Positions 36,704 to 60,527 of a DNA stretch of 64,000 bases are shown one piece after another (within the stretch, counting starts at the first letter, position 1; each line of letters begins with the position of its first letter). The notes beneath the pieces were generated by a model. It made no database searches. It was not told where the DNA came from and saw only the letters and a program-made list of their open reading frames with translations. The position numbers and the translations under genes are program-made. The stretch comes from Escherichia phage YX22, in the sequence record OR776998; one strand, given 5' to 3'.

Positions 36704-36709
36704 GATAAT

Positions 36710-36780: not shown

Positions 36781-36805
36781 AACCCTGCCGAAGAGGGGGT
36801 TAGTT

Positions 36806-39787: not shown

Positions 39788-39820
39788 TTCAAATACCCCT
39801 AAATGTGTTCGTTTCATCTA

Positions 39821-39835
39821 GGGGTATTTAGTTTT
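39821..39835 (-). promoter_or_regulatory. late-promoter-like motif upstream of tailspike 4
   Basis: Minus strand AACTAAATACCCCTAGATG..TAGGGGTATTTGAA ATG. Confidence 0.5.
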
Positions 39836-39839
39836 CACT

Positions 39840-41030: not shown

Positions 41031-41032
41031 TT

Positions 41033-46804: not shown

Positions 46805-46878
46805 GGTCCTGTAGCTCAGTCGGTTAGAGCAGTGAACTCATAATTCATTGGTCGTTGGTTCAAATCCAACCAGGATCA
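46805..46878 (+). tRNA. tRNA-Met (anticodon CAU; initiator, elongator or Ile2-type not resolved)
   Basis: Cloverleaf read by hand: acceptor GGTCCTG/CAGGATC, D-arm GCTC..GAGC, anticodon loop CTCATAA, T-arm GTTGG-TTCAAAT-CCAAC, CCA encoded. Confidence 0.8.
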
Positions 46879-47134
46879 CCATGTTAAGGGGTGTGAAACA
46901 TAACACTCCGACAAACACAGTAAGCGTTGCAGCCAGCTGTGTATAAAATGGGGATGACTCCGCATCGGAAACGATGCCCCAACTTCCAGAAATGGTCGGG
47001 CGCAAAGCCTGTAAAGTTCCAGGAGATCGAACCAGAAGGCACTGGTCGCCAGTTAACCAATCGGCGCTGAGAAGCGCGGGGAGTTGGGCTACGGCAGATC
47101 AAATGCTCAATCGGGTGTGAAGCCCGTCCAAATT

Positions 47135-47220
47135 GGAAGGTTGCCCGAGAGGTTTAAGGGACTCGACTGCTAATCGAGTGGGGCTTTTAGCCCCCGAAGG
47201 TTCGAATCCTTCACCTTCCG
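47135..47220 (+). tRNA. tRNA-Ser (anticodon GCU)
   Basis: Acceptor GGAAGGT/ACCTTCC, anticodon stem CTCGA/TCGAG with loop CTGCTAA, long variable arm, T-arm GAAGG-TTCGAAT-CCTTC, CCA encoded. Confidence 0.8.
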
Positions 47221-47443
47221 CCAAATTACGGGCGTGACTTCCTGAAGAGTTAGAAGATGTGCATGTCGACTCTCTCTCGTAATCGGGGTGTTTAGGAAGT
47301 TAAGAAAATCGCGGCGAGGATAGTGAAATGCAAATAGCTTTCTCTACGTCGACGACTTCAGGTTCGACTCCTGACGCGCTCTCCCATAGGGTAGTACCAG
47401 TGCAAGCGTGTAGTCTTTCAACCCATCCCATCGATGTGGTGTA

Positions 47444-47596: not shown

Positions 47597-48259
47597 ATGC
47601 GTAATGTTTCTATCTGGGAATTGAACGAAGTGATTTCCCATGACACCCCTCCAATTGTCAGACTCTTCCAATACAAGGGTGTCAAGCGCACTCTGAATGA
47701 GTTCCTGTCGCCTGTTTACGTCTACCGTGATGGCGGGTTCTTCCGCCGCGATAAAAACATCCCGAACCTTGGTATGACGTTTGATTTGAGTATCAAAGGC
47801 CAGGTTGTATTGATGGGTTATGGTAGCCTAGAACAATCTGAGAAAGGCCAGGGCGCTCCACTTATGGTCTTCGGTTCGTTTGAACAAGCCGTGCACTGGC
47901 TGATCAGAAACGGATATGATTTCTATGGCGAAGAAAGCGCCAATTGGCGTCGTCGCAAGGTCAAGTCTGTTAATCTGGTGGATTTGAATCTGATGTACCA
48001 GGCCATGGCTCGCGAGTACGAAAAGAATCTCGTCAAGCCTGTCGCCCAGGAGAACAATAACAATGTTGTTAACGACGCAACTGAGTCTTCTCATCATGAC
48101 GTGAACATCGTTCCAGCCTGTGAAACGAAAGCGCCGACACCGCCCACTCCTCCGGCCAGTCGTGTTCTGAATGATCAGGGCGCTCCGGTAAAACAAAAGG
48201 TCAAGAAGCCGACTTTCATGGAAAACATGATGAAGTTCCTTCGTCTGTTCAAGAAATAA
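47597..48259 (+). CDS. hypothetical protein
   Basis: 220 aa, GAGGA SD; follows tRNA operon terminator. Confidence 0.6.
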   Translation: MRNVSIWELNEVISHDTPPIVRLFQYKGVKRTLNEFLSPVYVYRDGGFFRRDKNIPNLGMTFDLSIKGQVVLMGYGSLEQSEKGQGAPLMVFGSFEQAVHWLIRNGYDFYGEESANWRRRKVKSVNLVDLNLMYQAMAREYEKNLVKPVAQENNNNVVNDATESSHHDVNIVPACETKAPTPPTPPASRVLNDQGAPVKQKVKKPTFMENMMKFLRLFKK

Positions 48260-48328
48260 GCCGAGATTCTCCTTTTCTATATTCCTGTAGATACGCTATG
48301 ATAAGCCAATGTCTACAGGAGAAATAGA

Positions 48329-49522
48329 ATGAACAAGACCATCTTCGATATCCTTTCCCTCGACCGCAACCTGGTCCATTGGGAAGATTATCTCTACAAG
48401 CACACCCCGTGCGAACTTGTCGTCAACCCAGAAACCAACCAGCAGGTCTGGTTCAAGCGTGAAGATTATTTTGCGCCGCTGTCTAACTATGCCAACGCCA
48501 AGCAGGGCATCAATGGCAGCAAACTCCGCCAGGCCATCTGGTTGATGGTTGAGCACCTCAAGGCCGGAGGCTCCCCTGACATCATCCATGGTACTGTCGT
48601 TGGTAGTCCGCAGTCCCCTATGGCGACGGCAGTCTCTCGGCACTTCGGCGGCAAGACAACCACTGTACTCGGAGCGACCAAACCCACCACCTGTATGAAC
48701 CACGACATGGTGGCAATGTCAGCCTGGTTTGGTAGTGAGTTCAACTTCGTCGGCTCGGGTTACAACAGCACGATCCAGCCGCGCTGTAAGAAGTTGATCG
48801 AACAACAGAATCCAAAGGCGTATTATCTGGAATATGGTATCACCCTCGACCATACAGCGCATTCTCCTGAGCGCATCGCTGGCTTCCATATGCTGGGTGG
48901 CGAGCAGGTTGCCAACATCCCTGACCATATTACCGATCTGATTATCCCAGCCGGATCGTGCAACTCTTGCACAAGTATCCTGACCGGGCTGGCAATGCAT
49001 CCGAAGCCTAATCTGAAGCGTGTGTATCTGATTGGCATCGGTCCGAACCGCCTGGACTTTATCGAGAGCCGTCTGCGCATCATCGGCAAACATGCCAATC
49101 TGCCGCACATTGTCGACTTCACCCGTCGCTATCACGACAACCCAGACTATGTACACGGCAAGAAGGAGCTTCAGCATGCCTCTAAGAGCGTTTCGCTGGC
49201 TGGCCTCCTGAGTGGTATCAGACATAAGGAAGAGCCAGAGGTCGTGCTTCCTCGCTTTGAGGTACACCATTGGGATCTTCATACCACTAATTGGGTTCGT
49301 TACAATGACCTGATGGAATATCAGTGGGGTGATATTGAGTTGCACCCTCGCTATGAAGGCAAGGTCATGACCTGGATCCAGCAGAACAAGCCAGAGGTGC
49401 TCAATGAGAACACTCTGTTCTGGATTGTGGGTAGCAAGCCATACATCGATCCGATGAAGGCAGCATGCCCTGAGCTGGCTATCCCTGAAACAGTTCCTGT
49501 AAACGAATTCACCCCTTCCTGA
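48329..49522 (+). CDS. PLP-dependent fold-type II enzyme (ACC deaminase/D-cysteine desulfhydrase-like); DNA-modification candidate
   Basis: HTP, KREDY and GSKLRQ resemble AcdS-family KRED..GGNKTRKLE lysine motif. Confidence 0.55.
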   Translation: MNKTIFDILSLDRNLVHWEDYLYKHTPCELVVNPETNQQVWFKREDYFAPLSNYANAKQGINGSKLRQAIWLMVEHLKAGGSPDIIHGTVVGSPQSPMATAVSRHFGGKTTTVLGATKPTTCMNHDMVAMSAWFGSEFNFVGSGYNSTIQPRCKKLIEQQNPKAYYLEYGITLDHTAHSPERIAGFHMLGGEQVANIPDHITDLIIPAGSCNSCTSILTGLAMHPKPNLKRVYLIGIGPNRLDFIESRLRIIGKHANLPHIVDFTRRYHDNPDYVHGKKELQHASKSVSLAGLLSGIRHKEEPEVVLPRFEVHHWDLHTTNWVRYNDLMEYQWGDIELHPRYEGKVMTWIQQNKPEVLNENTLFWIVGSKPYIDPMKAACPELAIPETVPVNEFTPS

Positions 49523-49657
49523 CCCTCCTGAACACCCCATACAATCCGTGTGGGGTATCTATGAAAACCTTCCTCCAATATTTCCGAGAGGCGTCCTGTA
49601 CAAACCAGACCTGGCACCTAAATACCCCCATATGGCTAACCCACTGAGGAACCCAAC

Positions 49658-50116
49658 ATGCCAACCTCCAAATTGTTTGAATCAGAATACACCAATGACA
49701 TCCCTGTATGGACTGGTGTTCAAGACGGTATCACGATTGAGCTGTTTGATCGTGAAGAGACAGGCGCGGAAGAGATCTATGCAGGCGTTGAAGGCACTGA
49801 TGTTGTCCGCGCCGCCGTAGCACTTGCCACCTTCCTGGAAGATGCACCGATTGATGGCGTGCCGTTCGAGGCGCACGTAGATCCTAAGGATCCGACCTCT
49901 ATCATCATTACAGTGAATGGGGTGCCATACACTTCGTACAGCATCGAGACGGACGAAGAGGGCAGCGGAGCGCTGTATATTGCCACCGACCTGCAGCTGG
50001 AAGACGATGAGATGGATTATCTGATTCAGAACGGGGTGCTGCCACCGTTTACCGATGAAGAACTGGACACGGAACTGGCTGCTGTCGGGGACGACGAAGA
50101 CTTCTGGGAAGAATAA
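49658..50116 (+). CDS. highly acidic protein (about 39 Asp/Glu vs 5 Lys/Arg/His); DNA-mimic or inhibitor candidate
   Basis: 152 aa, GAGGAA SD, acidic C-terminal tail DDEDFWEE. Confidence 0.6.
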   Translation: MPTSKLFESEYTNDIPVWTGVQDGITIELFDREETGAEEIYAGVEGTDVVRAAVALATFLEDAPIDGVPFEAHVDPKDPTSIIITVNGVPYTSYSIETDEEGSGALYIATDLQLEDDEMDYLIQNGVLPPFTDEELDTELAAVGDDEDFWEE

Positions 50117-50141
50117 GAAAAGGGGCGTTAAGCCCCTTTCT

Positions 50142-50693
50142 TCATTTCACCTTGCGAGTTGGATATTGGTTAAAGAGTTTGCCCAGCTTAGACACGTTGA
50201 TGATCGTCTGGGTCTTCCAGCGCTGGATCCCTTCCGGGGTAGTCACGGTCAGGATTGAATGCCCCCAAATGTGAGAACCGTCCAGCACAGCCGCGCTGTG
50301 GCTACCAATCTTGTCTTCCAGTTTGCAAATGAAAGATTCATACTGATGGGCAGCGTTGCAACGGGCTTCTTTGATGAACAGACGCTGGCGCTCTGGATCA
50401 GACTTGACGATGTTAGGCGCACCCACTTGATAAGAGCGGTTCGGCGGGTTATTGTCGGCGGTCAGGCTCATATACAAAGACTGCTTTGCCTTCATGTGTT
50501 GGTAATCGTGGTGATCCATTCTGATGCCAACAGTTGATGGCCAAGGAGCGCACTTCTGAATATCCCAGCCGTTGGCGGCTAGATCGTCCATCACGTTCTT
50601 GATGATTTTGTTCGCGTACTGCTCGGCAGCTTCTTCGGCTTGCGACAACAGAGGCTCAACAGCGATACGGACAGCAGTTTTTGGTATTGTCAT
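50142..50693 (-). CDS. hypothetical protein
   Basis: 184 aa from ATG 50693 with GAAGGG SD; hairpin upstream. Confidence 0.5.
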   Translation of the reverse strand: MTIPKTAVRIAVEPLLSQAEEAAEQYANKIIKNVMDDLAANGWDIQKCAPWPSTVGIRMDHHDYQHMKAKQSLYMSLTADNNPPNRSYQVGAPNIVKSDPERQRLFIKEARCNAAHQYESFICKLEDKIGSHSAAVLDGSHIWGHSILTVTTPEGIQRWKTQTIINVSKLGKLFNQYPTRKVK

Positions 50694-50739
50694 GATATAG
50701 CCCTTCAGTTCAAAGTAAGCCCCCGGAGGGGCTTTGTAA

Positions 50740-51048
50740 TTAGACAAAGATGAATTTAGAATCTTTGAATGTCAAGCGGGAGCAAACTTCTTCAACCGCG
50801 TCAACCACCATAAAATCGTTGAATGCTTTGTGTAGGGCTTTCAGGAAGGAAGCCGGAACCAGCCCACACGCTGGGTTGTCAAACAAAGCCGAAGAGACGA
50901 CAGAGTTGAAAGTTGAGTCTGGAGTACAAGACTGGGCAATCATAAGCGCTTCTGCGTTTCTCACTGCGTGGAACTTAAAGGTAGCAACAACGGTTTCTTT
51001 GTTATATTTAGCCAGTTGTGCTTCAAATTGTTCTTTTGTGATTGCCAT
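50740..51048 (-). CDS. hypothetical protein
   Basis: 102 aa from ATG 51048 with AGAAGGAAA SD; early-type promoter upstream. Confidence 0.5.
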   Translation of the reverse strand: MAITKEQFEAQLAKYNKETVVATFKFHAVRNAEALMIAQSCTPDSTFNSVVSSALFDNPACGLVPASFLKALHKAFNDFMVVDAVEEVCSRLTFKDSKFIFV

Positions 51049-51097
51049 GATGTATTTCCTTCTCTTCAGATTGTTGTTTGTTCGTACTACAATTAGA

Positions 51098-51126
51098 AGT
51101 ATACGCCAGTTATTGAAGAAGTAAAC
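51098..51126 (-). promoter_or_regulatory. T4-early-like promoter (GTTTAC -35, 17 nt, TATACT -10)
   Basis: Minus strand GTTTAC TTCTTCAATAACTGGCG TATACT; spacer contains the TTCAATAA box. Confidence 0.4.
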
Positions 51127-51143
51127 TTTATTCAATAAATATT

Positions 51144-51356
51144 TTAATAAATTTTGAACTCTGCTCCTTTATACACAGCCGACCCTCGTTCTATGAGACC
51201 GTCAGGGACAATTACCTTTGTTGGCCAACCACCATCTGGAGCCTTAACAGTCAGGCGCGTCTTATGATCGCCCAGCTGTGTTTGTTCATATATCCTTCCG
51301 CGCACTATCGTCGCCCCGCCTTGGGTGACGAGCAATCTCTTGTTTACCACATTCAT
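51144..51356 (-). CDS. hypothetical small protein
   Basis: 70 aa, TAGGGA SD, follows terminator. Confidence 0.5.
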   Translation of the reverse strand: MNVVNKRLLVTQGGATIVRGRIYEQTQLGDHKTRLTVKAPDGGWPTKVIVPDGLIERGSAVYKGAEFKIY

Positions 51357-51370
51357 TCCCTAAACACCAA

Positions 51371-51396
51371 AAGAAAGGGGAGTTTCCTCCCCTTGA
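51371..51396 (-). terminator. terminator after membrane protein gene
   Basis: Minus strand GGGGAG-GAAA-CTCCCC then TTTCTTTTGG. Confidence 0.6.
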
Positions 51397-51398
51397 AC

Positions 51399-51971
51399 TT
51401 ATTTCTTCAGATCAGGCCACGCACCAGAGGTCGCAGTAGACCCAGCTGGGGGAGCAGACTCAAGATCGGGAGAACCCGACTGAGTAACAACAGTGGGATC
51501 TTTCTGTACGACCCGAACCCCAAATTGCTTGAGAGCATCCATAGCTTGGGCTTTTCGCCTGTTGCTTTTGTAGTGGTTGTAGCCTTTGATACCGAATGAT
51601 GCACTAATTGCTGTCAATAACGAATAGGTATACCATTCAGGTGCGGTATCTAGTGCCTGAAGGCCACCGATTACTGCTTTGATGAAATCCCCTTTATGAT
51701 ACTCACCAGGGAACAGAATCAGTTCCACAACCGGAGCAGTCATGACGAGGATGGCGGGTATGGCCAACACGATAGTCCAGAATTCGTCTTTCCAAGACCC
51801 GCCGACTTCGGTAATCTTAGACAGCTCCCAATCTGAGGAGGACTTGATGGCCTCCAGCTTGACGTCGTGTTTGGCCTGTACAACTTCCCGCTTATATTGG
51901 ATCAAATCAGTCCCGAGGTTCCAGAGTTGCTTGAGCACCCCTGGGATCATACCAACGAGGGGGATTGCCAT
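51399..51971 (-). CDS. membrane protein
   Basis: 190 aa from ATG 51971 (AAGGAG SD); two hydrophobic segments. Confidence 0.5.
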   Translation of the reverse strand: MAIPLVGMIPGVLKQLWNLGTDLIQYKREVVQAKHDVKLEAIKSSSDWELSKITEVGGSWKDEFWTIVLAIPAILVMTAPVVELILFPGEYHKGDFIKAVIGGLQALDTAPEWYTYSLLTAISASFGIKGYNHYKSNRRKAQAMDALKQFGVRVVQKDPTVVTQSGSPDLESAPPAGSTATSGAWPDLKK

Positions 51972-52050
51972 AATAAACTCCTTGGTCAATGAATGGCTCT
52001 ATGGTTAAATATGCCCACGTGCTAACGGCACGGATAACCTGGAGAATTAC

Positions 52051-55050
52051 ATGACCGTTTTCTATACGAACGTTGCCCGCAGGGGCAATGACCTGTTGAT
52101 TCGAATTGCAGATGACATGGGTAATCGCCGTCTGTTGAAAAAGAAATTCGAACCCACTCTCTATTTACCCACGGCTGACTATTCAAATGTTGAAAAGGTC
52201 GGCCTTCTCAATGAACCCCTGGTAGCCAAGCAGTTCCCTTCCATGCGTGACGCTGATAACTATCTTGAAGAGTACAAGGAAGTCCAGGGTGCTGCCATTT
52301 ACGGGCAGACCGATTATGCATACCAGTTCATTGCCCATAGCTTTCCTGGAAAGATTGAGCCGGATTATTCCAACATCCATATTGCTAACCTCGATATCGA
52401 AGTGTTCTCCGCCGGGTGGAAAGATGGAAAGATGACCAAAGGTCCATTCCCTCACCCAACCATTGAGCAGCAGACGTTCAAAGGAAATGAGGCGCGCATT
52501 CGCCGCTTCCATAAACAAGTGCTGGCCAACCATGACTTCATCCGTGAGCACTTCCCTGGTTCTTTCATCAGCAACAACGTCACTGATCAGTTCCCTATCA
52601 TTGACAGCAACGGCAAGATCACCCAAGACATGAATGCGGCGTTCCCTATCACGCTTATCCAGCTTCAGGACATGGCGACCAATAAGTTCATGGTGTGGGG
52701 TATGCCGTGCGCGAAGGATCGTGCGAAGTTCAGATACGATCCAGAAGACGCGGAGATCGGTGGACTTGAGGTTGTCTATCAGGAGTTCACTACTGAACAA
52801 GATCTGCTGCGCTCTTTCCTGGACTTCTGGTCGGAGCGTCAGTTTGATGGCTGGACAGGCTGGAACATTGAAACGTTCGATAGCCCGTATCTTGTTGAGC
52901 GCATGAATCAGGTTCTGGGTGAGGCTGAAACGTCGCGCCTCAGTCCTTGGGGTATCATTAAGAAGCGTATCATTCGCGATAAGAAGGGCGATATCACGAC
53001 GTATCAGTTCGTGGGTTGCCCTATGCTCGATTATATGCAGATCTACAAGAAACACACGTACACCACCCGTGAACGCTACTCTCTTGACTGGATTGCGTAT
53101 TGTGAGCTGGGTGAGAAGAAGATGGACTACAGTGAGAGCAAGTCACTCTTTGATCTGTACTTCAACGACTACTGCAAACACACCCGATATGGTATCAAAG
53201 ACGTTAAGCTGGTATGGCGACTTGAACAGAAGCTGCGCCTGCTCCAGCTGATGTTCGTCCTGGCCTACCGCACCAAGTCCAACTATGAAGACGGTCTGGG
53301 CACTGTGGCTCCGTGGCTGGCCATGTGCTACTATCGTCTGTATGAGAAGGGGATAGTGCCTAAGATCCAGCGTGTATACGATGGTCCGACCGACTTTGAG
53401 GGTGCATACGTCATGGATGTGACACCAGGAATCTACTTCTGGGTCTTCTCGGAAGATTTGAACTCCCTGTATCCTCACATCATTCAGCAGTACAACCTCG
53501 GTCCAGAGACTATCGTTGGCGACAAACACCAGCGCCGTGAGATTATTGAGGCTATGTGTGAAGAGCTGGCTGCTCAGATGAATAACATGGCAACGCCGAT
53601 GCACAAACGTCGGTTGATGAAAGCCCTTCACGACAAGCTGTTGCGTGCGGTTGACGAACGCCTGCAGGTTGTTGATGAGTTGGTTGCCCTGGGTGAGTTC
53701 CACTTTGAAACCCTGCGCCGTTACAACGTGTCGTTCACGCCGAACGTTCAATTCTTCAGCAACGAGAAGATGTCGTTCCTGTCTGAAATCATGCGCGGTA
53801 TCTACAGCGACCGTAAAGTAGAGAAGGCCAAGGGTCTGAAGTATGAGCAGTGGGCTGGCTGGTGTAAAGAGATGTCGAAGGGTGACTTCCATCTTGAGTC
53901 TGCCATGAAGTCTCGCTACTATGACCCAGAGTGGTATGAAGAGCACAAGAACATTGATCTTGATGCCCTGACCGAAGTGATGAAGAAGTGGGAAGACCTG
54001 GGCGTCGCTCAAGATACCCTACAGCAAGGTCTGAAGATCTTGATGAACGCAGGTTATGGCGCTATCTCGAACGTCTGGTTCAAAGAGTACTTCAACCTCA
54101 ACATTGCCGAAGCCATCACCACATCCGGTCAGCTGATCAACAAGTGGAATAAGCGTTACACTGATGACTATCTGAACAAGCTGTGTGGTACAACAGGCCA
54201 GGACTTCGTCATCGCAGGGGATACCGACTCCAACTACATCTGCATTGAGCGTCTTGTCAAGCAGTTGTGGCCTGATGTTACTGACCATCATGCTATGGTT
54301 GATAATATCGACCAATGGATCAAAGACAACTACCAGCCGAAGACCAATGAGTGGGCACAGCTTCTGTGTAACACCATGAACGGATTTGAACAGCGCATGG
54401 TGTGGGAGCGTGAGGTCATTGCGTCAGCCGCTGTCTGGCGAGCCAAGAAGATGTATGCCATGGCCGTGTACGACAGTGAGGGTATCAAGTACGAGAAGCC
54501 GAAGATCAAGTTCAAAGGTCTGGAAGCCCGCAAGTCCACCACGCCGGAATGGTGTCGTGAACGCCTTGTCAAGTGCTATGAGAAGATCCTACTCGGCACC
54601 GAAGAGGAAGTACAGACGCTCATCTCCCAGTACAAAGAGGAGTACATGAAACTCTCTGTAGACGATATCGCCAAGGCTTCCGGCGTGTCCGACATAGAGA
54701 AGTGTGTGGCTGCTGACGGATCGTTCATCTCTGGTGCTCATTTTGCTGCAAAGGCTTGTGTGGGTTACAACCGTCTGGTTGAGAAGAACGAAGATCTGGG
54801 TCTACCGATGATCGAGTCGGGTGATAAGGTACAGATGGTGTTGTTGAAGCCAGGCAACCCATTCGGCCAGAATTACTTTGCATATCCTGAGTTCTTCCCC
54901 GAGGAGCTTGGTCTGGGTAAATGGGTGGATTATCAGGCGGCCTTTGAGAAGTCCTTCATTGATCCGATTCAGTCTATCCTCGACGTGGTCGGCTGGTCAC
55001 ACAAGCGCCGTGTGAACCTTCTTGCCATGATGCAAAAGAAGAAAGGTTGA
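52051..55050 (+). CDS. gp43: family B DNA polymerase, T4 gp43-like
   Basis: N-terminus MTVFYTNVARRGNDLL.. matches T4 MKEFYISIETVGNNIV..; SYSLDWIAYCELGEKK, VAGDTDS and KKMYA motifs; GGAGAA SD. Confidence 0.9.
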   Translation: MTVFYTNVARRGNDLLIRIADDMGNRRLLKKKFEPTLYLPTADYSNVEKVGLLNEPLVAKQFPSMRDADNYLEEYKEVQGAAIYGQTDYAYQFIAHSFPGKIEPDYSNIHIANLDIEVFSAGWKDGKMTKGPFPHPTIEQQTFKGNEARIRRFHKQVLANHDFIREHFPGSFISNNVTDQFPIIDSNGKITQDMNAAFPITLIQLQDMATNKFMVWGMPCAKDRAKFRYDPEDAEIGGLEVVYQEFTTEQDLLRSFLDFWSERQFDGWTGWNIETFDSPYLVERMNQVLGEAETSRLSPWGIIKKRIIRDKKGDITTYQFVGCPMLDYMQIYKKHTYTTRERYSLDWIAYCELGEKKMDYSESKSLFDLYFNDYCKHTRYGIKDVKLVWRLEQKLRLLQLMFVLAYRTKSNYEDGLGTVAPWLAMCYYRLYEKGIVPKIQRVYDGPTDFEGAYVMDVTPGIYFWVFSEDLNSLYPHIIQQYNLGPETIVGDKHQRREIIEAMCEELAAQMNNMATPMHKRRLMKALHDKLLRAVDERLQVVDELVALGEFHFETLRRYNVSFTPNVQFFSNEKMSFLSEIMRGIYSDRKVEKAKGLKYEQWAGWCKEMSKGDFHLESAMKSRYYDPEWYEEHKNIDLDALTEVMKKWEDLGVAQDTLQQGLKILMNAGYGAISNVWFKEYFNLNIAEAITTSGQLINKWNKRYTDDYLNKLCGTTGQDFVIAGDTDSNYICIERLVKQLWPDVTDHHAMVDNIDQWIKDNYQPKTNEWAQLLCNTMNGFEQRMVWEREVIASAAVWRAKKMYAMAVYDSEGIKYEKPKIKFKGLEARKSTTPEWCRERLVKCYEKILLGTEEEVQTLISQYKEEYMKLSVDDIAKASGVSDIEKCVAADGSFISGAHFAAKACVGYNRLVEKNEDLGLPMIESGDKVQMVLLKPGNPFGQNYFAYPEFFPEELGLGKWVDYQAAFEKSFIDPIQSILDVVGWSHKRRVNLLAMMQKKKG

Positions 55051-55082
55051 TTCAATAAACCAAAGGGGGATATAATTCCCCC
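55051..55082 (+). promoter_or_regulatory. box-type promoter P2 with -10 hexamer in hairpin loop
   Basis: TTCAATAA ACCAAAGGGGGA TATAAT TCCCCC directly after polymerase stop. Confidence 0.45.
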
Positions 55083-55112
55083 TGTTAACCCTTTGACAAA
55101 CAGGTGATTGAA

Positions 55113-55454
55113 ATGAAACTCAATAAGATTCTTCTGGTGTGCGCTCTGGCTTTCTCTACCACTGCGTGCTCCACCCTTCTGGACGTTGCGTCTACTGTAG
55201 ACCTTGACGCGCCGACGTTCACCAATGAGCAGGCTGTGTCCAAGATGGAAGACACCATCAAGGCGCATGCGGCGTTGGATAACGCCACCCCAGGTCCGCT
55301 CCAAACTGTCTGCAACTATGACGATTCCATCCAGGAAGACGAAACTTACCACTGCATCACCTACGTGAAGCAGGCCTCCGTCGTTCTGTATGCAGATTGT
55401 ACCGAAGAACAGTGTGTTGCTACAGGCTACGATAAAGTTGAGGAAGACAAATGA
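55113..55454 (+). CDS. small secreted or lipoprotein
   Basis: Signal peptide MKLNKILLVCALAFSTTAC; start at ATG 55113 with AGGTGA SD (track start 55104 is GTG). Confidence 0.5.
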   Translation: MKLNKILLVCALAFSTTACSTLLDVASTVDLDAPTFTNEQAVSKMEDTIKAHAALDNATPGPLQTVCNYDDSIQEDETYHCITYVKQASVVLYADCTEEQCVATGYDKVEEDK

Positions 55455-56230
55455 ACAACCTGGTTTGTATCTATGATATGAAATCAAAGGTCGGTGGTCT
55501 GTATCGCGTCCTCGTGGATGTTGACCTGACGTTGGTCGACAGCCTCTCCCCTTGGGTGCAGTGGTTCAATGAAGAGAACATCGCCGCCGCTGCTATCGCT
55601 ACGGGGGAACATAAGTCATACCAGTTCCAGCCGATTACTAAAGAGTGTTATATGTCCCATGCTGGCGACCTGGCTATTCTGATGCGTGAACGTGCGCATC
55701 CGGCGTGGCTATACCATGAAGTCCAATTGGGGATGCACAAACAACGTGTGCCAAGCGGTAACGATCCTATGGACTGGTGGCGTCGCCCTGACTTGTACGC
55801 CAAGATGAACCCGCTCCCCGGCGCTTACGAGTTCCTGGTAAATCTGAAGGATATCTTGCTTGAAGATTTCGACAATGTTGAATTCATCGCGGTGTCGAAG
55901 TGCGAGCCGGAACACGAGCGCAGCAAGCGCCAGTTTGTCTATGACAAGTTCCCTGGTATCTTCAACGGGTTTGTCAGCACCGACGAAAAGCATCTGCTGG
56001 CTGGCGATGTCCTGATTGATGACAATCCGAAGTATGTCGAGCCATGCGGCCTGAACAACATCTTTGTCATCTTTGTTCCTCAGGGCAATTATGAAAAACT
56101 GGATCTTTCGAACTCGGAAGATATGCTTTATATTAAACCAGTAGAAGGCCAGAACCACTTCGACTTCCTGAATCACAATATTATTGAAGTGGTCAATCGC
56201 CTGATTAGTCATTATCAATACGTCCGATAG
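55451..56230 (+). CDS. HAD-superfamily phosphatase (nucleotidase candidate)
   Basis: Motif I VDVDLTLVD (DxDxT), later FIAVSK and GDVLIDDNPK. Confidence 0.5.
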   Translation: MNNLVCIYDMKSKVGGLYRVLVDVDLTLVDSLSPWVQWFNEENIAAAAIATGEHKSYQFQPITKECYMSHAGDLAILMRERAHPAWLYHEVQLGMHKQRVPSGNDPMDWWRRPDLYAKMNPLPGAYEFLVNLKDILLEDFDNVEFIAVSKCEPEHERSKRQFVYDKFPGIFNGFVSTDEKHLLAGDVLIDDNPKYVEPCGLNNIFVIFVPQGNYEKLDLSNSEDMLYIKPVEGQNHFDFLNHNIIEVVNRLISHYQYVR

Positions 56231-56239
56231 GAGGACATC

Positions 56240-56545
56240 GTGCAAGAACAATCCAAGTTTGGGGAAACCCCAGACAAGCGTTCCGGTGATAGCGACATGG
56301 ATAGCGTGATTAACCATGTGAACAACTTCATTCGTCAGCAGGAGACTCCAACTCCTATCGGTGCAGCCAAGGCTCTTCATGATGTACTGGTGAAGATCGG
56401 CCAGCGCTCTGAAGCGGATGAAATCTTCTATAACTTTGAAGACCAGTATAAAGTGAAGTTTGAAGAAAACGGTCGTCCGCAGGTTGCTGTGTTCTGGGCA
56501 CCTTGGCTGGGCGGCGTGAGCTGGCGTATTGAGGATGCTGTGTGA
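56240..56545 (+). CDS. hypothetical protein
   Basis: 101 aa ORF, overlaps next gene start. Confidence 0.5.
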   Translation: MQEQSKFGETPDKRSGDSDMDSVINHVNNFIRQQETPTPIGAAKALHDVLVKIGQRSEADEIFYNFEDQYKVKFEENGRPQVAVFWAPWLGGVSWRIEDAV

Positions 56546-58143
56546 TGTCTCGCTACCATTACACATATAGGATAACCCATGTCCCAACTGGTAGATTCTA
56601 CGTCGGGATTCGGTCTTGTTCATGCACCCCCGAACAAGATCCCTATATGGGTTCTGGTGTGATCATCAAAAGGTTGTTGGAATCTCACCCCGCTTCTGAA
56701 TTCTTAAAGACGATAATAGAAAAGTTTGAAACCAGGTTGGAAGCATCCGACCTGGAGTCTATTATTGTTACGGAAGAGTTACTGTTGGACCCATTATGCC
56801 TGAACCTGAAATTGGGAGGAGACAATTCTATCATCCCAAACCAATTTAAGGCGGCGTTGGCTAGGACTGGCAAGAAATACAAATCTGGTATAAATCCTTG
56901 GGATGATCCAGAATACCGGGAACGTGTAATAAAATCAATAAAGGAGAACAGGGGTAATTCTCCCTACCCATTCATGGTTTCAAATGGTTATTGGTGGGTT
57001 TGGAAGGACGCCTGTAGGATCTATGATAGATGGGTGAACAACGGTGGTACTGTGAATCCTACCTGTATGCCAAAACGAGGATGTGGTTACAAATCTATCG
57101 GATTGTGGTATTCTAAACTACTGGACACAGAGTATCGTAATCTAAAGGGCGATGAGAGCGTCTTTCGTAATATGATCGCCATGTTTAAAGATGGTTGGAT
57201 TCCCAAAGAGGACAAACGTTTTATGACTATGATAAATTCTAGCGTGACGCCGGGTATTGTCGTTATTCGCGGGACAAGTGGAACGGGAAAGGGGACTCGT
57301 GTCGTTCAATTCCTTGAGTGGTTGAGAACCAAATATGAGCCAGAACTCATAGAATACGAATTCGACAAGAAGATGATCCAGGTTGGGTTTTGGTTCAAGG
57401 AAATCAATCTGGTGTTCATCGGCAAGTATACAGTGTCCAACAAATCAGGTCTAGCATCATGGACTTCCATGGATTTCATACACTCCACTCTCAAGTCTTC
57501 TGAGATGGCCAATTCGTTGTTGAAGTATCTCAAAATAAAGTTCAAAGATGCAACTATCATCTTGGAGGGGGAACCTATGATGCAGAGCCATCGTTGGCGT
57601 CCCGAGTTCGTACACCAGGACTTGGGGTTCAACAACATGGCATTCATCTCCTTTATTTACCAAGCGCGGGAAGATTACGACAAACGTATCATCGGTCGTT
57701 CTGGTAAGGCGGCGAAGGACACTGGCTGGGGAAGAAATGAACAATACACCAAGGATCACGTCAAGATCATGGGTGAGTACGCTTCCATCGGATACGAACT
57801 TGAACCAGACTCTCAGAATGAGTTGTTCATTGCAAAGGCAGCGAATGAAAATGGTGTAAAGGCAGTTGGTTGGAATATACTGAAATTCTTCGATGCCCCT
57901 CTCCACTTTATTGGTAGTTTTATTATAGATTTTGTTGGATTGAGAGGGTTGTCCAAAGAAGAGTTTCAAAAATATTGCGACACCACACCAATGTTGCGCA
58001 AGATTAAGGGTAGCAACCCTTTGGCGCACAGAGTCCCTGAGAAGCCGCAGAAGGCATCCAAAACTAAAACCAAGGCGAGCGCCCAGCCAGAAGCAACGAA
58101 GGCAGCGTCGCGCTCTCTCCTTGACCTGATGAAGAAGGGGTGA
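56542..58143 (+). CDS. GIY-YIG endonuclease domain in frame with a P-loop NMP-kinase-like domain (fusion, or two genes with kinase start near 57223)
   Basis: N-terminus YHYTYRITHVPTGRFYVGI..YMGSG; downstream GTSGTGKGT Walker A; internal ATG 57223 preceded by AGAGGA. Confidence 0.55.
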   Translation: MMSRYHYTYRITHVPTGRFYVGIRSCSCTPEQDPYMGSGVIIKRLLESHPASEFLKTIIEKFETRLEASDLESIIVTEELLLDPLCLNLKLGGDNSIIPNQFKAALARTGKKYKSGINPWDDPEYRERVIKSIKENRGNSPYPFMVSNGYWWVWKDACRIYDRWVNNGGTVNPTCMPKRGCGYKSIGLWYSKLLDTEYRNLKGDESVFRNMIAMFKDGWIPKEDKRFMTMINSSVTPGIVVIRGTSGTGKGTRVVQFLEWLRTKYEPELIEYEFDKKMIQVGFWFKEINLVFIGKYTVSNKSGLASWTSMDFIHSTLKSSEMANSLLKYLKIKFKDATIILEGEPMMQSHRWRPEFVHQDLGFNNMAFISFIYQAREDYDKRIIGRSGKAAKDTGWGRNEQYTKDHVKIMGEYASIGYELEPDSQNELFIAKAANENGVKAVGWNILKFFDAPLHFIGSFIIDFVGLRGLSKEEFQKYCDTTPMLRKIKGSNPLAHRVPEKPQKASKTKTKASAQPEATKAASRSLLDLMKKG

Positions 58144-58343
58144 TCATGAAACGGTTGTCTAATTATCTGTTGTTCATTGGTCTGGTTATGGCAGCCGTTT
58201 CAATGTGTACTGCCCTAGCCTATCATTTCACCCCTCTGGACTTAACAACCTCAGAGAAGTTGAACGTGACTGTGATGTACTGTATTGGCGCGGTGATGTC
58301 TATCGGCGCTGCTGGTTACAAAATATTCAAGGAACCAAAATGA
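58140..58343 (+). CDS. small two-helix membrane protein
   Basis: 67 aa, GAAGGGG SD, overlaps neighbours. Confidence 0.45.
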   Translation: MIMKRLSNYLLFIGLVMAAVSMCTALAYHFTPLDLTTSEKLNVTVMYCIGAVMSIGAAGYKIFKEPK

Positions 58344-58717
58344 AAATTCAAATCCCTCGCGATGCTGTGGCTGTTGCGATTGACTACACCGGAAACGCCA
58401 AGCACATTACTGCCGTGCGCCTGATTCCTGAAAAGAACTGCGTCATCCCTCAGTTCCAGCTGAATGCTAATCCGTCGTCCAAAGACTTCGGCAAGTGGTT
58501 GCAGGCTGCTCCGTTCCGTACCCAGACGAATGCTCAGATGTTCATCTCGGGTAAGACCCAAACTGCAGCCCGTCTGTGGTTCGTGACCGCTGACCGTCGC
58601 TTTGTCGATATGTGGGAACGTCCGATGGGGTTCGTGAAGCCGGAAGATATTCAGCTGGATCCTGAGCCTGAAGCTGTGGCTCCTGAAGAGGAAGCGAAAG
58701 ATGCATCATTTATCTAA
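58340..58717 (+). CDS. hypothetical protein
   Basis: 125 aa from ATG 58340 with AAGGAACC SD. Confidence 0.5.
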   Translation: MKIQIPRDAVAVAIDYTGNAKHITAVRLIPEKNCVIPQFQLNANPSSKDFGKWLQAAPFRTQTNAQMFISGKTQTAARLWFVTADRRFVDMWERPMGFVKPEDIQLDPEPEAVAPEEEAKDASFI

Positions 58718-59936
58718 AATGCCGACGGGCTATACGCCTCCGGCTGAATGGAAGTACCCGATTGACCTGGCTGTTGATTATCGCAAGCCTGAGAATCGCA
58801 TGTACCTGCTCAAGGCTTGGGTGGAGGCGCTGTCCTACACAGAAGAGCACAACCAGCAGATGCGTCTGATGGACTATGCGATCGAAGTCACTGAAGGCAT
58901 CAGCCTCGAACAGAAAGTCGAGCGCAAGATCTGGATGGCATTCCTGTGGGGTTGTTGCTATAACGCTGTCGGACCGTGGACAATCTACAGTGAGTTCCCT
59001 GTACCACCCCAGTCCAAAGAAGAGATGCAGCGCTTCTCAGACTGGTACAACCTGAACTTTGAACGCATGCGATTCGATACCGACTGTCGCTACCGCAAGT
59101 CCAAGATGATTCCGTGTGTTCAGTCCTATATTGACTGGCTGGCTGGCCGTACTCAATATGACGCTTTCCGTGGGATGTTGGTGTGCATCGATAAGACAGA
59201 ACAATTCACCCAGCTGTGGGACACGGCGATGTCCTGGAAATACTTCGGTCGCCTGAGCGCCTGGAACTTCCTGGAAGCCCTGAACATGGTCTTCGGGAAC
59301 GAATACACCATTGACGTCCCTGGGTTCATGTTGCGTGACCGTGATGGAAGCGAGTCCAACCGTAATGGCGCGGCGTTCTTGTCCAACCGTGACGATTGGG
59401 TGACTAAACACGGGAAGAAAAAGATCAACGGTTGTCCTATCACGGATGAAGAGTGTGACATCCTTGAGGCCGACCTTGAGCAGGCGTTCCAGGATTGTGT
59501 GGCTGAGTTCGGGCACCTGACGTTCATCAACCGCCTGAACTTTGAAACCTCCGGTGCTTGTTGGCTGAAGAAATTCTTCCGACTGAAGAATACCCGTTAC
59601 ATCGGGTGGGACGCAGAGCGTACCTGGGATGAGATAGACTACATGGAACGCGTCTGGCCTGAATACTCCTGCGCAGCGCTCTGGGAAGCCCGTTCTCTCT
59701 GGCTGCCAGATACCCTGTTGTGTGAAAAGGCTCCTGCAGGGCACGTTCCAGGCGTCCAGAAGTGGAAGATGCCTGTGTTCTTTGAGACTGGTGTTCCTCT
59801 GCATATCTGGCACCTGCAAAGGGGTACGCGCTGGGAACCGTCCGAGGTATGTACGAACCTGAAGATGCCTGTGCGCAAGGTTGAGGACAAGCCGAAGTCC
59901 AGCAGCGTCAACCTCATGACACTCTTGAAACGCTGA
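58701..59936 (+). CDS. hypothetical 411-aa protein (DNA-modification enzyme candidate by context only)
   Basis: Long ORF overlapping upstream gene; Trp/Cys-rich; no motif recognised. Confidence 0.5.
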   Translation: MHHLSKMPTGYTPPAEWKYPIDLAVDYRKPENRMYLLKAWVEALSYTEEHNQQMRLMDYAIEVTEGISLEQKVERKIWMAFLWGCCYNAVGPWTIYSEFPVPPQSKEEMQRFSDWYNLNFERMRFDTDCRYRKSKMIPCVQSYIDWLAGRTQYDAFRGMLVCIDKTEQFTQLWDTAMSWKYFGRLSAWNFLEALNMVFGNEYTIDVPGFMLRDRDGSESNRNGAAFLSNRDDWVTKHGKKKINGCPITDEECDILEADLEQAFQDCVAEFGHLTFINRLNFETSGACWLKKFFRLKNTRYIGWDAERTWDEIDYMERVWPEYSCAALWEARSLWLPDTLLCEKAPAGHVPGVQKWKMPVFFETGVPLHIWHLQRGTRWEPSEVCTNLKMPVRKVEDKPKSSSVNLMTLLKR

Positions 59937-60159: not shown

Positions 60160-60207
60160 TTCAATAAAGGGGAATGGGTTATTATTAGCCCGTTCCCCTT
60201 TCTTTTT
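60160..60207 (+). promoter_or_regulatory. box-type promoter P3 overlapping an intrinsic terminator
   Basis: TTCAATAA AGGGGAATGGGT TATTAT TAGCCCGTTCCCC TTTCTTTTT. Confidence 0.5.
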
Positions 60208-60308: not shown

Positions 60309-60527
60309 ATGATCAAGAATACCCGAACAATGAAGCGCGCAATCGCTCACTGTGTCCATTCAGTGGCAACTATTATGTTCCGCCACCACATCACATTTGA
60401 TGAAGCACTGGACCCACAGTACCATGAAGAGCGTTGGGATTTGTTGTTAAAGAACGGTGCCAATCCTGAGCATAAAGATCAACTCCTTGGGATGACCAAG
60501 GCGCAGCTCGTCGGTGAATCCAAATGA
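60309..60527 (+). CDS. hypothetical small protein
   Basis: 72 aa, GGGAGAA SD. Confidence 0.45.
   Translation: MIKNTRTMKRAIAHCVHSVATIMFRHHITFDEALDPQYHEERWDLLLKNGANPEHKDQLLGMTKAQLVGESK

What the first reader, a model, noticed from the sequence alone, without database searches (positions are those of the whole stretch)
48329..59936. Candidate DNA hypermodification gene set around the DNA polymerase
Within ~12 kb flanking gp43 are a PLP-dependent fold-II enzyme (KRED..GSKLRQ), a HAD phosphatase (DVDLT motif), a P-loop NMP-kinase-like domain and a 411-aa protein of unknown function. Ackermannviridae-type phages are known to replace thymidine with hydroxymethyl-dU derivatives made by a DNA kinase, a PLP enzyme and transferases. 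If this phage belongs to that group, these genes are good candidates; the exact base cannot be inferred.
Basis: inference. Interest (0 to 1): 0.55.

Follow-up and report, generated by a model that had tools for sequence, protein, structure and literature searches.

The report
Known phage thymidine hypermodification genes

Summary
The window is an Aglimvirinae (Ackermannviridae) phage, about 97% identical in DNA to Escherichia phages ZQ1, PC3 and PH4.

- **PLP enzyme:** ORF 48329-49522 is 91.6% identical to Salmonella phage ViI gp226, the PLP-dependent O-serinyl-thymidine decarboxylase. The Schiff-base lysine is kept.
- **Transferase:** ORF 58701-59936 is 89.8% identical to ViI gp247, the serine:DNA transferase (Pfam ADDT, E 4.5e-60). 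The catalytic Glu/Cys motif is identical.
- **Kinase:** The C-terminal 296 residues of ORF 56545-58143 match the Pfam 5-hmdU DNA kinase 2 family over its full length (E 3.8e-156).

The base can therefore be predicted by orthology as 5-(2-aminoethoxy)methyl-dU (5-NeOmdU). Relatives only about 50-56% identical make the same base.

The HAD protein is an NT5C-type deoxyribonucleotidase. It is co-transcribed and syntenic with the kinase, but its role is unproven. The dUMP hydroxymethylase, kinase 1 and aGPT-Pplase1 are not found in the window.

One less ordinary point: the kinase is a divergent allele, 47-50% identical to the standard one. It is fused in frame to a complete Seg-like GIY-YIG homing endonuclease. 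This cassette is patchy among relatives and has been transferred horizontally.

The parts
48329..49522 (+). PLP-dependent decarboxylase, orthologue of ViI gp226. It is predicted to convert O-serinyl-thymidine in DNA to 5-NeOmdU.
   Evidence: It is 91.6% identical to ViI gp226 and 95.9% to RPN242 gp169. K65 aligns with ViI K92 and M6 gp52 K36, the predicted Schiff-base lysines. The Pfam PALP hit is E 4.4e-07, below the curated cut-off. An in-frame absence of 27 codons after codon 2 relative to ViI is shared with ZQ1, and the N-terminus aligns from residue 1 with the shorter (382-aa) enzyme of the 5-NeOmdU-containing Vibrio phage 1.255.O.
48275..48328 (+). Conserved 5'-UTR hairpin that pairs the Shine-Dalgarno sequence of the PLP gene. 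It is a possible translational control element and its function was not tested.
   Evidence: The predicted fold has a free energy of -23.1 kcal/mol and a z-score of -4.67 against shuffles. The intergenic stretch 48254-48334 is 96% identical to ViI, while the flanking coding DNA is 68-83% identical.
52051..55050 (+). Family-B DNA polymerase (gp43-like). It is context only and not part of the modification pathway.
   Evidence: Pfam DNA_pol_B_exo1 and DNA_pol_B domains are present. It is 86.6% identical to the ViI polymerase. It is uninterrupted here, whereas ZQ1 and RPN242 carry an insertion of about 1.18 kb at window position 53469.
55047..55076 (+). Sigma-70-like promoter match just after the polymerase stop codon. 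It is the possible start of the transcription unit that contains the kinase and transferase.
   Evidence: The site reads TTGATT-18-TATAAT, matching 10 of 12 consensus positions, the best site in 47-61 kb. This is a consensus match only.
55104..55454 (+). DUF7292 protein of unknown role, co-oriented with the kinase and with a start/stop overlap to the next gene.
   Evidence: Pfam DUF7292 matches at E 6e-53. The same position is occupied in ViI, LIMEstone1, KpS110 and contig L013.
55451..56230 (+). HAD-superfamily NT5C-like 5'(3')-deoxyribonucleotidase. It may trim the dTMP/dUMP pool. Its role in hypermodification is inferred, not shown.
   Evidence: Pfam NT5C scores 35.8 bits against a 24.8-bit cut-off. 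The DVDLT and LIDDNP motifs align with the catalytic motifs of solved deoxyribonucleotidases 3bwv and 4mwo. It is 76% identical to Vi01_194. An NT5C/HAD gene sits just upstream of the kinase in Vibrio phage 1.255.O and in the distant contigs L012 and L015.
56240..56545 (+). DUF7254 protein of unknown role. Its stop codon overlaps the start codon of the next ORF.
   Evidence: Pfam DUF7254 matches at E 1.4e-51. It is conserved immediately upstream of the kinase across Ackermannviridae.
56545..57249 (+). Seg-like GIY-YIG homing endonuclease (catalytic domain plus a middle region). It is the N-terminal part of the fusion ORF, which is the F-LimXI type described in phage LIMEstone1.
   Evidence: PHROG 314 'homing endonuclease' matches at E 2.6e-24 over aa 1-228. 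tblastn finds T4 and RB33 SegB at 35% identity. A profile search gives thousands of free-standing GIY-YIG proteins on positions 2-150, and two free-standing endonucleases on positions 3-230. R64, E71 and N87 are invariant across fusion homologues down to 38% identity.
57250..58143 (+). 5-hmdU DNA kinase (HMUD2 family) domain in the same reading frame as the endonuclease. It is predicted to phosphorylate 5-hmdU in DNA to 5-PmdU.
   Evidence: Pfam HMUD2 matches at E 3.8e-156 over the full profile. It is 47% identical to ViI gp243 and 50% to RPN242 gp183. The Walker A motif and all family-invariant blocks are conserved. There is no stop codon between the domains in any homologue.
58140..58717 (+). 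Two small overlapping ORFs (67 aa, annotated as a membrane protein in relatives, and about 125 aa) between the kinase and the transferase. Their role is unknown.
   Evidence: They are conserved in enterobacterial Ackermannviridae. They are absent in 1.255.O, L012 and L015, where the transferase directly follows the kinase. No Pfam family matches.
58701..59936 (+). Amino acid:DNA transferase (aGPT-Pplase clade 2, Pfam ADDT), orthologue of the ViI gp247 serine:DNA transferase. It is predicted to convert 5-PmdU to O-serinyl-thymidine.
   Evidence: Pfam ADDT matches at E 4.5e-60. It is 89.8% identical to ViI gp247. The motif ETSGAC at aa 282-287 lies in a block identical to ViI gp247. By motif it corresponds to PaMx11 gp46 E243/T244/C247 and to M6 gp51 ETVLC.
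60166..60201 (+). Strong intrinsic-terminator-like hairpin downstream of the transferase gene.
   Evidence: It has a 16-pair stem with 7 G-C pairs followed by a T-run. This is a consensus match only.

Best explanation
The region holds the post-replicative half of the ViI-type thymidine hypermodification pathway of Ackermannviridae.

1. 5-hydroxymethyl-dU is first incorporated into phage DNA from 5-hm-dUTP. That nucleotide is made by a thymidylate-synthase-like dUMP hydroxymethylase, which is not found in this window.
2. The kinase domain of ORF 56545-58143 phosphorylates the 5-hydroxymethyl group in DNA, giving 5-PmdU.
3. The transferase (58701-59936) attacks C6 with its cysteine, expels the phosphate, and adds the side-chain hydroxyl of free L-serine. 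This gives O-serinyl-thymidine.
4. The PLP enzyme (48329-49522) decarboxylates that adduct to 5-(2-aminoethoxy)methyl-dU (5-NeOmdU).

5-NeOmdU replaces a fraction of the thymidines and blocks many restriction enzymes.

Shown here are the orthology, the domain membership and the conservation of catalytic residues. The chemistry itself is inferred from published work on ViI. In this phage the kinase is a divergent allele fused in frame to a Seg-like GIY-YIG homing endonuclease, and the two have spread together as a mobile cassette.
For: - **Family membership:** Pfam HMUD2 E 3.8e-156 and ADDT E 4.5e-60.
- **Orthology to ViI:** 91.6% identity to gp226, 89.8% to gp247 and 47% to gp243, with identical gene order: PLP, polymerase, DUF7292, NT5C, DUF7254, kinase, two small ORFs, transferase.
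- **Catalytic residues:** the Schiff-base lysine is conserved, and the catalytic Glu/Cys block is identical to gp247.
- **Published biochemistry:** ViI gp243 phosphorylates 5-hmdU DNA, purified gp247 transfers serine, and gp226 decarboxylates the adduct (PMC8989533). 5-NeOmdU replaces about 40% of T in ViI, CBA120, CBA6 and Vibrio phage 1.255.O (PMC5889632). It replaces about 16% of T in a Taipeivirus (bioRxiv 10.64898/2026.05.19.726188).
- **Tolerance to divergence:** the 1.255.O orthologues are only 50.6% (PLP) and 55.9% (ADDT) identical to the window proteins.
- **Prior literature on this subfamily:** Lee et al. list LIMEstone, SKML-39 and AG3 (all Aglimvirinae) among the phages predicted to contain 5-NeOmdU. 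The PP35 paper states that the genes are conserved in all Ackermannviridae.
- **Rest of the pathway:** the close relative RPN242 encodes the remaining genes elsewhere in its genome. These are a thymidylate-synthase-like protein, an HMUD1 kinase and HMUDK_hel (aGPT-Pplase1).
Against: - No nucleoside analysis exists for this phage, and I found none for any Aglimvirinae member. The PP35 paper says the structure is yet to be determined.
- The dUMP hydroxymethylase, kinase 1 and aGPT-Pplase1 are not in the window. Their presence is assumed from relatives.
- The kinase allele is only 47-50% identical to the tested ViI gp243. It is embedded in a fusion protein whose activity has never been assayed.
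- The Pfam PALP hit of the PLP enzyme is below the curated cut-off.
- The correspondence of ETSGAC to the catalytic Glu/Cys of PaMx11 gp46 rests on motif matching. phmmer and MAFFT could not align the window protein with M6 gp51.
Confidence: 0.88

Rival explanations
1. The same enzyme set is present, but the final base in this phage differs from 5-NeOmdU. Possible causes are a different amino acid being transferred, or the adduct remaining as O-serinyl-thymidine because the PLP enzyme with its shorter N-terminus is inactive.
For: No Aglimvirinae DNA has been analysed chemically. The PLP ORF lacks 27 codons present in ViI and RPN242. Clade-2 transferases of other phages use glycine or putrescine.
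Against: The transferase is 89.8% and the PLP enzyme 91.6% identical to the ViI enzymes. The far more divergent 1.255.O enzymes (51-56% identity) still give the 301-Da base. The window's PLP enzyme aligns from residue 1 with the shorter (382-aa) 1.255.O enzyme, so the 27 extra residues in ViI are dispensable. The catalytic lysine is conserved.
Confidence: 0.06
2. ORF 56545-58143 is only a selfish homing endonuclease, as it is annotated in several records. Its kinase-like part would be inactive or serve merely as a DNA-binding module, and phosphorylation of 5-hmdU would be done by the paralogous HMUD1 kinase encoded elsewhere.
For: It is annotated as 'endonuclease' or 'homing endonuclease F-LimXI'. 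ViI has two active kinases, gp67 and gp243, so one could be redundant. The kinase part is only 47-50% identical to the standard allele.
Against: The HMUD2 match is full-length at E 3.8e-156. The Walker A motif and every block invariant between the fused and standard kinases are retained. The kinase part is the best-conserved portion across fusion homologues down to 38% identity. In contigs L012 and L015 the fused protein is the only HMUD2 kinase within the fetched 13-18 kb locus, next to ADDT and HMUDK_hel.
Confidence: 0.05
3. The genes are ordinary small-molecule metabolic enzymes (threonine dehydratase or ammonia-lyase, guanylate or thymidylate kinase) that are unrelated to DNA modification, as annotated in some GenBank and RefSeq records.
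For: Record annotations include 'threonine dehydratase', 'putative threonine ammonia lyase' and 'guanylate kinase'.
Against: The ViI orthologues act on DNA substrates in vitro. NCBIfam gives no match to any curated metabolic family. The Pfam assignments are to DNA-modification families.
Confidence: 0.01

Closest known systems
Salmonella phage ViI (Kuttervirus) 5-NeOmdU pathway: gp243/gp67 5-hmdU DNA kinases, gp247 serine:DNA transferase, gp226 PLP decarboxylase (Lee et al. 2018 PNAS; Lee et al. 2021/22 NAR)
   Same: Gene content and gene order around the DNA polymerase are the same. The transferase is 89.8% and the decarboxylase 91.6% identical, with catalytic residues conserved.
   Different: The kinase 2 allele is only 47% identical and is fused to a GIY-YIG endonuclease, whereas ViI gp243 is a free-standing 304-aa protein. 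The PLP enzyme lacks 27 N-terminal residues. The ART-PolyVal gene between the PLP gene and the next gene (Vi01_183 in ViI, gp170 in RPN242) is absent.
Dickeya phage LIMEstone1 ORF186 'F-LimXI' and Dickeya phage PP35 ORF183 (Limestonevirus, Aglimvirinae)
   Same: It is the same fused endonuclease-kinase ORF at the same locus, with about 91-93% nucleotide identity over the cassette. The PP35 paper lists ORF183 as a hypermodification kinase.
   Different: The LIMEstone1 paper describes F-LimXI only as a free-standing SegB-like GIY-YIG endonuclease and does not mention the kinase domain.
T4 Seg endonucleases and intronless homing (for example SegF next to gene 56; Belle et al. 2002, from my own knowledge)
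   Same: A free-standing-type GIY-YIG endonuclease sits next to a nucleotide-metabolism gene. The neighbouring gene is a divergent allele that travels with the endonuclease. The distribution among close relatives is patchy, and there are co-conversion-like tracts of altered identity.
   Different: Here the endonuclease and the neighbouring gene form one continuous reading frame, conserved down to 38% identity. No cleavage or homing has been demonstrated.
Pseudomonas phages M6 and PaMx11 (gp54/gp49 kinase, gp51/gp46 glycine:DNA transferase, gp52 PLP decarboxylase)
   Same: The logic is the same: kinase, then clade-2 transferase, then PLP decarboxylase. The Schiff-base lysine aligns with M6 gp52 K36, and the E-T-x-x(-x)-C motif is present.
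   Different: The amino acid is glycine and the final bases are 5-NedU or 5-AcNmdU. Sequence identity is about 26-27% or undetectable.

Membership tests
ViI-type 5-NeOmdU thymidine hypermodification pathway | A 5-hmdU DNA kinase (HMUD1 or HMUD2 family) with an intact P-loop | tested here: met
   Pfam PF18747 matches at E 3.8e-156 over profile positions 2-298 of 298. GTSGTGKGT lies at aa 243-251, and the invariant blocks shared with ViI gp243 are kept.
ViI-type 5-NeOmdU thymidine hypermodification pathway | A clade-2 aGPT-Pplase (amino acid:DNA transferase) with the essential Glu and Cys | tested here: met
   Pfam PF18724 matches at E 4.5e-60, with 89.8% identity to ViI gp247. The ETSGAC block is identical to gp247. 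Mapping this motif to the mutated residues is by motif only.
ViI-type 5-NeOmdU thymidine hypermodification pathway | A PLP-dependent decarboxylase homologous to gp226 with the Schiff-base lysine | tested here: met
   The protein is 91.6% identical to gp226. K65 aligns with ViI K92 and M6 gp52 K36.
ViI-type 5-NeOmdU thymidine hypermodification pathway | A dUMP hydroxymethylase (thymidylate synthase homologue) that supplies 5-hm-dUTP | tested here: inconclusive
   None is found in the 64-kb window (tblastn). The relative RPN242 encodes it, together with HMUD1 and HMUDK_hel, in genome regions that lie outside the window's homologous span.
ViI-type 5-NeOmdU thymidine hypermodification pathway | Virion DNA contains 5-NeOmdU (301-Da nucleoside) and resists many type II restriction enzymes | not testable with these tools
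   This needs LC-MS and restriction digests. It has been shown for ViI, CBA120, CBA6, 1.255.O and phiHS2 only.
Fold-type II PLP enzymes (Pfam PALP) | A score above the curated Pfam threshold, plus the lysine in the S-K motif | tested here: inconclusive
   The PALP score is 30 bits against a 35-bit cut-off, E 4.4e-07, and the lysine is conserved. There is no PDB sequence hit. The ViI orthologue was modelled on a tryptophan-synthase-beta-like fold by the authors.
NT5C 5'(3')-deoxyribonucleotidases (HAD superfamily) | HAD motif I (DxDxT/V), the acidic motif IV (DD), and a Pfam score above threshold | tested here: met
   PF06941 scores 35.8 bits against a 24.8-bit cut-off. DVDLT and LIDDNP align with the motifs of 3bwv and of the mitochondrial deoxyribonucleotidase.
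NT5C protein as a component of the hypermodification pathway | The protein is required for, or specific to, hypermodifying phages | not tested
   It is not in the list of genes unique to hypermodifying phages and was not needed for reconstitution. The only support is conserved linkage to the kinase in three lineages. Its best PHROG match, phrog_420, carries no assigned function.
Seg-like GIY-YIG homing endonucleases | A GIY-YIG catalytic domain with conserved Arg, Glu and Asn | tested here: met
   PHROG 314 matches at E 2.6e-24. Similarity to SegB is 35%. A profile search hits thousands of free-standing GIY-YIG proteins at E 1e-24 to 1e-34. R64, E71 and N87 are invariant. Pfam's own models are below threshold, with SegE_GIY-YIG at E 0.075.
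Seg-like GIY-YIG homing endonucleases | Sporadic distribution among close relatives and evidence of lateral transfer with flanking sequence | tested here: met
   Twenty-eight records carry the endonuclease part at 60% identity or more, and 28 of 349 records matching the kinase part carry the divergent kinase allele at 80% identity or more. The cassette is present in LIMEstone1 but absent in Coodle, which belongs to the same species. It is 91-94% identical to Kuttervirus UTK0004, against 75-82% for the flanks.
Seg-like GIY-YIG homing endonucleases | Site-specific cleavage of the endonuclease-less allele | not testable with these tools
   This needs an in vitro cleavage assay or mixed-infection crosses.

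The most novel reading that the evidence does not exclude
The 532-aa ORF 56545-58143 may be a true bifunctional protein: a complete Seg-like GIY-YIG homing endonuclease permanently fused to a 5-hmdU DNA kinase. On this reading it forms a self-propagating cassette that replaces the resident kinase gene of co-infecting Ackermannviridae. An essential DNA-hypermodification enzyme would then be carried and spread by its own homing endonuclease.

In a library of 1.84 billion representatives, the architecture occurs in only two clusters at 50% identity. It is conserved down to 38% identity with no intervening stop codon. The papers I could read do not describe it.
Probability: 0.45. Interest if true: 0.45.

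Novelty: already known. Interest (0 to 1): 0.2.

Why it matters
For this window, the result mainly gives a firm annotation. The phage DNA is expected to carry 5-NeOmdU in place of part of its thymidine. That matters for restriction mapping, for nanopore or PCR-based work, for engineering, and for predicting which host defences the phage escapes.

It adds nothing new to the pathway itself, which has been reconstituted in vitro for ViI.

The endonuclease-kinase fusion is a modest lead. It shows that a hypermodification gene can be part of a mobile homing cassette. It also offers a natural test of whether a DNA-base kinase tolerates, or benefits from, covalent linkage to a nuclease.

Tried and rejected
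- **PDB sequence searches:** searches with the transferase and the PLP enzyme found nothing.
- **NCBIfam:** no match for any of the eight proteins, apart from one chance-level hit.
- **Alignment with M6 proteins:** phmmer did not align the window transferase with M6 gp51, and its only alignment of the fusion protein with the M6 gp54 kinase was a non-significant P-loop match. The four-sequence MAFFT alignment that included M6 gp51 misplaced the catalytic motif. The Glu/Cys correspondence therefore rests on motif inspection and on identity to ViI gp247.
- **Structure prediction:** an AlphaFold model of the fusion protein built from a 7-sequence alignment was mediocre (mean pLDDT 62; residues 88-218 below 50). 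The Foldseek search of the PDB gave no match at E <= 0.001, only weak P-loop GTPase similarities. It added nothing.
- **Pfam on the N-terminal 235 residues:** only a sub-threshold SegE_GIY-YIG hit. The profile search settled the membership instead.
- **PLP truncation:** I first suspected a C-terminal truncation of the PLP enzyme because it is 397 aa against 424 aa. The difference is instead an in-frame stretch of 27 codons near the N-terminus, and the window protein aligns from residue 1 with the shorter (382-aa) enzyme of the 5-NeOmdU phage 1.255.O.
- **Hairpin pattern search:** my pattern used the RPN242 sequence variant and so found nothing in the window. This is not informative.
- **Iyer et al. 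2013:** the paper is not in the held library. I could not check whether it already mentions the GIY-YIG fusion.
- **Other ORFs in the region:** 47597-48259, 49658-50116, 50142-50747 (-), 51399-51989 (-), 58140-58717 and 60524-61636 match only PHROGs or DUFs of unknown function. I found no evidence linking them to the pathway.

Full report
**What is there.**

The interval 48329-59936 contains, on the + strand:

- a 397-aa ORF (48329-49522),
- a 999-aa family-B DNA polymerase (52051-55050),
- a run of seven tightly packed or overlapping ORFs from 55104 to 59936.

Pfam assigns these ORFs as follows:

- The 397-aa protein hits PALP weakly (E 4.4e-07, below the curated cut-off).
- The 116-aa protein is DUF7292.
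- The 259-aa protein is NT5C (above the cut-off).
- The 101-aa protein is DUF7254.
- Residues 237-532 of the 533-aa ORF are HMUD2, '5-hmdU DNA kinase 2' (E 3.8e-156, full profile).
- The 411-aa protein is ADDT, 'amino acid:DNA transferase' (E 4.5e-60).

**Which phage.**

The 11.6-kb interval is 97% identical to Escherichia phages vB_EcoM-ZQ1, PC3 and PH4. It is about 90% identical to the Dickeya Limestoneviruses. All of these belong to Ackermannviridae, subfamily Aglimvirinae.

The gene order is the same as in Salmonella phage ViI. That order is PLP, several small genes, polymerase, DUF7292, NT5C, DUF7254, kinase, two small ORFs, transferase.

**Orthology to characterised enzymes.**

Identities to the ViI proteins are as follows:

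| Window protein | ViI protein | Identity |
|---|---|---|
| PLP enzyme | gp226 | 91.6% |
| Transferase | gp247 | 89.8% |
| Kinase domain | gp243 | 47% |
| NT5C protein | Vi01_194 | 76% |

The published work establishes these activities:

- ViI gp243 and gp67 phosphorylate 5-hmdU in DNA.
- Purified gp247 transfers L-serine through its hydroxyl onto 5-PmdU, giving O-serinyl-thymidine. A conserved Cys and Glu are essential for this.
- gp226 decarboxylates the adduct to 5-NeOmdU (PMC8989533).

The predicted Schiff-base lysine (ViI K92, M6 gp52 K36) aligns with K65 here.

The block FINRLNFETSGACWLKKFF, which contains the E-T-x-x-x-C motif, is identical in the window protein and in gp247. It resembles ETVLC of M6 gp51, and E243/T244/C247 of the crystallised PaMx11 gp46. 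The same motif recurs as ETSLCC in 1.255.O and ETSIFC in contig L012.

**Predicting the base.**

In fact 5-NeOmdU was found in ViI, CBA120, CBA6 and Vibrio phage 1.255.O, and in a Taipeivirus.

The 1.255.O enzymes are only 50.6% (PLP) and 55.9% (transferase) identical to those of the window. The window proteins therefore lie well inside the sequence range known to give this base.

The PLP ORF lacks 27 codons that ViI has. However, it aligns from residue 1 with the shorter (382-aa) enzyme of 1.255.O, so this difference is not a defect.

Lee et al. already list LIMEstone, SKML-39 and AG3 among the phages expected to contain 5-NeOmdU. The PP35 paper names the corresponding Limestonevirus ORFs, while noting that the chemistry has not been determined there. 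The system is therefore already known, and only direct chemistry on this subfamily is missing.

**What is not in the window.**

tblastn with the RPN242 thymidylate-synthase-like protein, HMUD1 kinase, HMUDK_hel (aGPT-Pplase1), dUTPase and dCMP deaminase finds nothing in the window. In RPN242 these genes lie outside the region homologous to the window.

The window therefore holds the post-replicative steps, apart from the paralogous kinase 1 and aGPT-Pplase1. It does not hold the precursor step.

**The HAD protein.**

This protein is a genuine though distant NT5C-type deoxyribonucleotidase. The nucleophile motif DVDLT and the LIDDNP motif align with solved enzymes.

It is not among the genes unique to hypermodifying phages, and it was not needed for reconstitution. 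It is not mentioned in the two pathway papers. Its best PHROG match, phrog_420, has no assigned function.

Some evidence favours a link:

- It is probably co-transcribed with the kinase and transferase. A promoter-like site lies at 55047-55076, the genes have overlapping start and stop codons, and a terminator lies at 60166-60201.
- An NT5C or HAD gene lies just upstream of the kinase in 1.255.O.
- The same holds in two distant metagenomic phage contigs.

A role in lowering dTMP or dUMP so that 5-hm-dUTP competes better is plausible, but it is only inference.

**The kinase is part of a homing-endonuclease fusion.**

The kinase domain is only 47-50% identical to the standard Ackermannviridae kinase 2, although the flanking genes are 90-97% identical to those of RPN242.

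Its N-terminal 230 residues are a Seg-like GIY-YIG endonuclease:

- PHROG 314 matches at E 2.6e-24.
- Similarity to SegB is 35%.
- The profile hits thousands of free-standing GIY-YIG proteins.
- Two free-standing endonucleases cover profile positions 3-230.

Relative to RPN242, homology stops at 56554 and resumes at 58018, inside the 3' end of the kinase gene.

In the phage collection, 28 records carry the endonuclease part at 60% identity or more. Of the 349 records matching the kinase part, 28 carry the divergent kinase allele at 80% identity or more. The carriers include members of Limestonevirus, unclassified Aglimvirinae, one Kuttervirus (UTK0004) and one Taipeivirus (KpS110). In every carrier examined the gene is one ORF of about 530 codons.

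LIMEstone1 has the cassette. Coodle, of the same species, instead has a different 228-aa GIY-YIG endonuclease followed by the standard kinase.

Against UTK0004 the cassette is 91-94% identical in DNA, while the flanks are 75-82% identical. UTK0004 itself is 98% identical to ViI up to the cassette. It is only 72% identical for about 650 bp after the cassette. This is the pattern of lateral transfer with co-conversion.

The fusion is not a recent accident, for these reasons:

- Homologues of 64-80% identity, and two of 38% identity, keep the same architecture.
- The putative catalytic R64, E71 and N87 of the nuclease are invariant.
- The segment just before the P-loop is strongly conserved.
- In the contigs carrying the 38%-identity forms, the fused gene is followed directly by ADDT and HMUDK_hel.

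At 50% clustering, only two representatives out of 1.84 billion have the full-length architecture.

An invariant Met (residue 229) lies downstream of a GAGG-like sequence in all lineages examined. This leaves open separate translation of the kinase from an internal start.

The LIMEstone1 paper lists this ORF (F-LimXI) only as a free-standing endonuclease. I found no paper that describes the fusion, but I could not read Iyer et al. 2013.

**Verdict.**

It concerns a well-characterised pathway in a family where its conservation is already published.

- Novelty: already known.
- Interest: low.

The only element with some freshness is the mobile endonuclease-kinase fusion. I report it as the novel case and under 'noticed in passing'.

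Noticed in passing
window 56545-58143: The 5-hmdU DNA kinase is a divergent allele, 47-50% identical to the standard one. It is fused in frame to a complete Seg-like GIY-YIG homing endonuclease. The cassette (about 56555-58017) is patchy among Ackermannviridae and more similar across subfamilies than its flanks. The architecture is conserved down to 38% identity, but it is confined to two 50%-identity clusters in a library of 1.84 billion representatives.
   Followed up: yes
window 48254-48334: The 5'-UTR of the PLP decarboxylase gene is 96% identical to ViI, while neighbouring coding DNA is 68-83% identical. It folds into a stable hairpin (-23.1 kcal/mol, z-score -4.67) that pairs the Shine-Dalgarno sequence. 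It may be a translational control element.
   Followed up: partly
window 53468-53470 (inside the DNA polymerase gene 52051-55050): The polymerase gene is uninterrupted here, as in ViI. The closest relatives ZQ1 and RPN242 carry an insertion of about 1.18 kb, encoding a 292-aa ORF, at exactly this point, and the Dickeya phages carry introns or homing endonucleases.
   Followed up: partly
window 49592-49595: About 390 bp present in RPN242 and ViI are missing here and in ZQ1. The missing gene (RPN242 gp170, ViI Vi01_183) matches Pfam ART-PolyVal, an ADP-ribosyltransferase family (E 4.9e-10).
   Followed up: partly
L001 15758-16444 (RPN242 gp182) and L011 1813-2499 (Coodle): A second, unrelated 228-aa GIY-YIG endonuclease occupies the same slot upstream of the standard kinase in other Aglimvirinae. 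The kinase 5' junction is therefore a hot spot used by at least two different homing endonucleases.
   Followed up: partly
L012 3052-12670 and L015 6831-12771: These metagenomic T4-like phage contigs carry a compact cluster: NT5C, an Alc-like gene, the fused GIY-YIG-HMUD2 kinase, ADDT, a protein of unknown function (182-196 aa), and HMUDK_hel. In L012, ten small ORFs lie between the Alc-like gene and the kinase. There is no PLP enzyme within the fetched 13-18 kb, so the final base in these phages may differ from 5-NeOmdU.
   Followed up: no
window 46805-46881 and 47135-47223: tRNA-Met (CAT) and tRNA-Ser (GCT) genes lie in the ORF-poor stretch upstream of the cluster, as in RPN242.
   Followed up: no
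window 28000-42000: G+C content drops to 0.42-0.46, against about 0.49-0.52 elsewhere. This region corresponds to the tail spike and tail fibre genes of relatives, consistent with exchanged receptor-binding modules.
   Followed up: no
window 50119-50139 and 51375-51394: Two bidirectional terminator-like hairpins bracket the three minus-strand genes (50142-51989) that lie between the PLP block and the polymerase.
   Followed up: no
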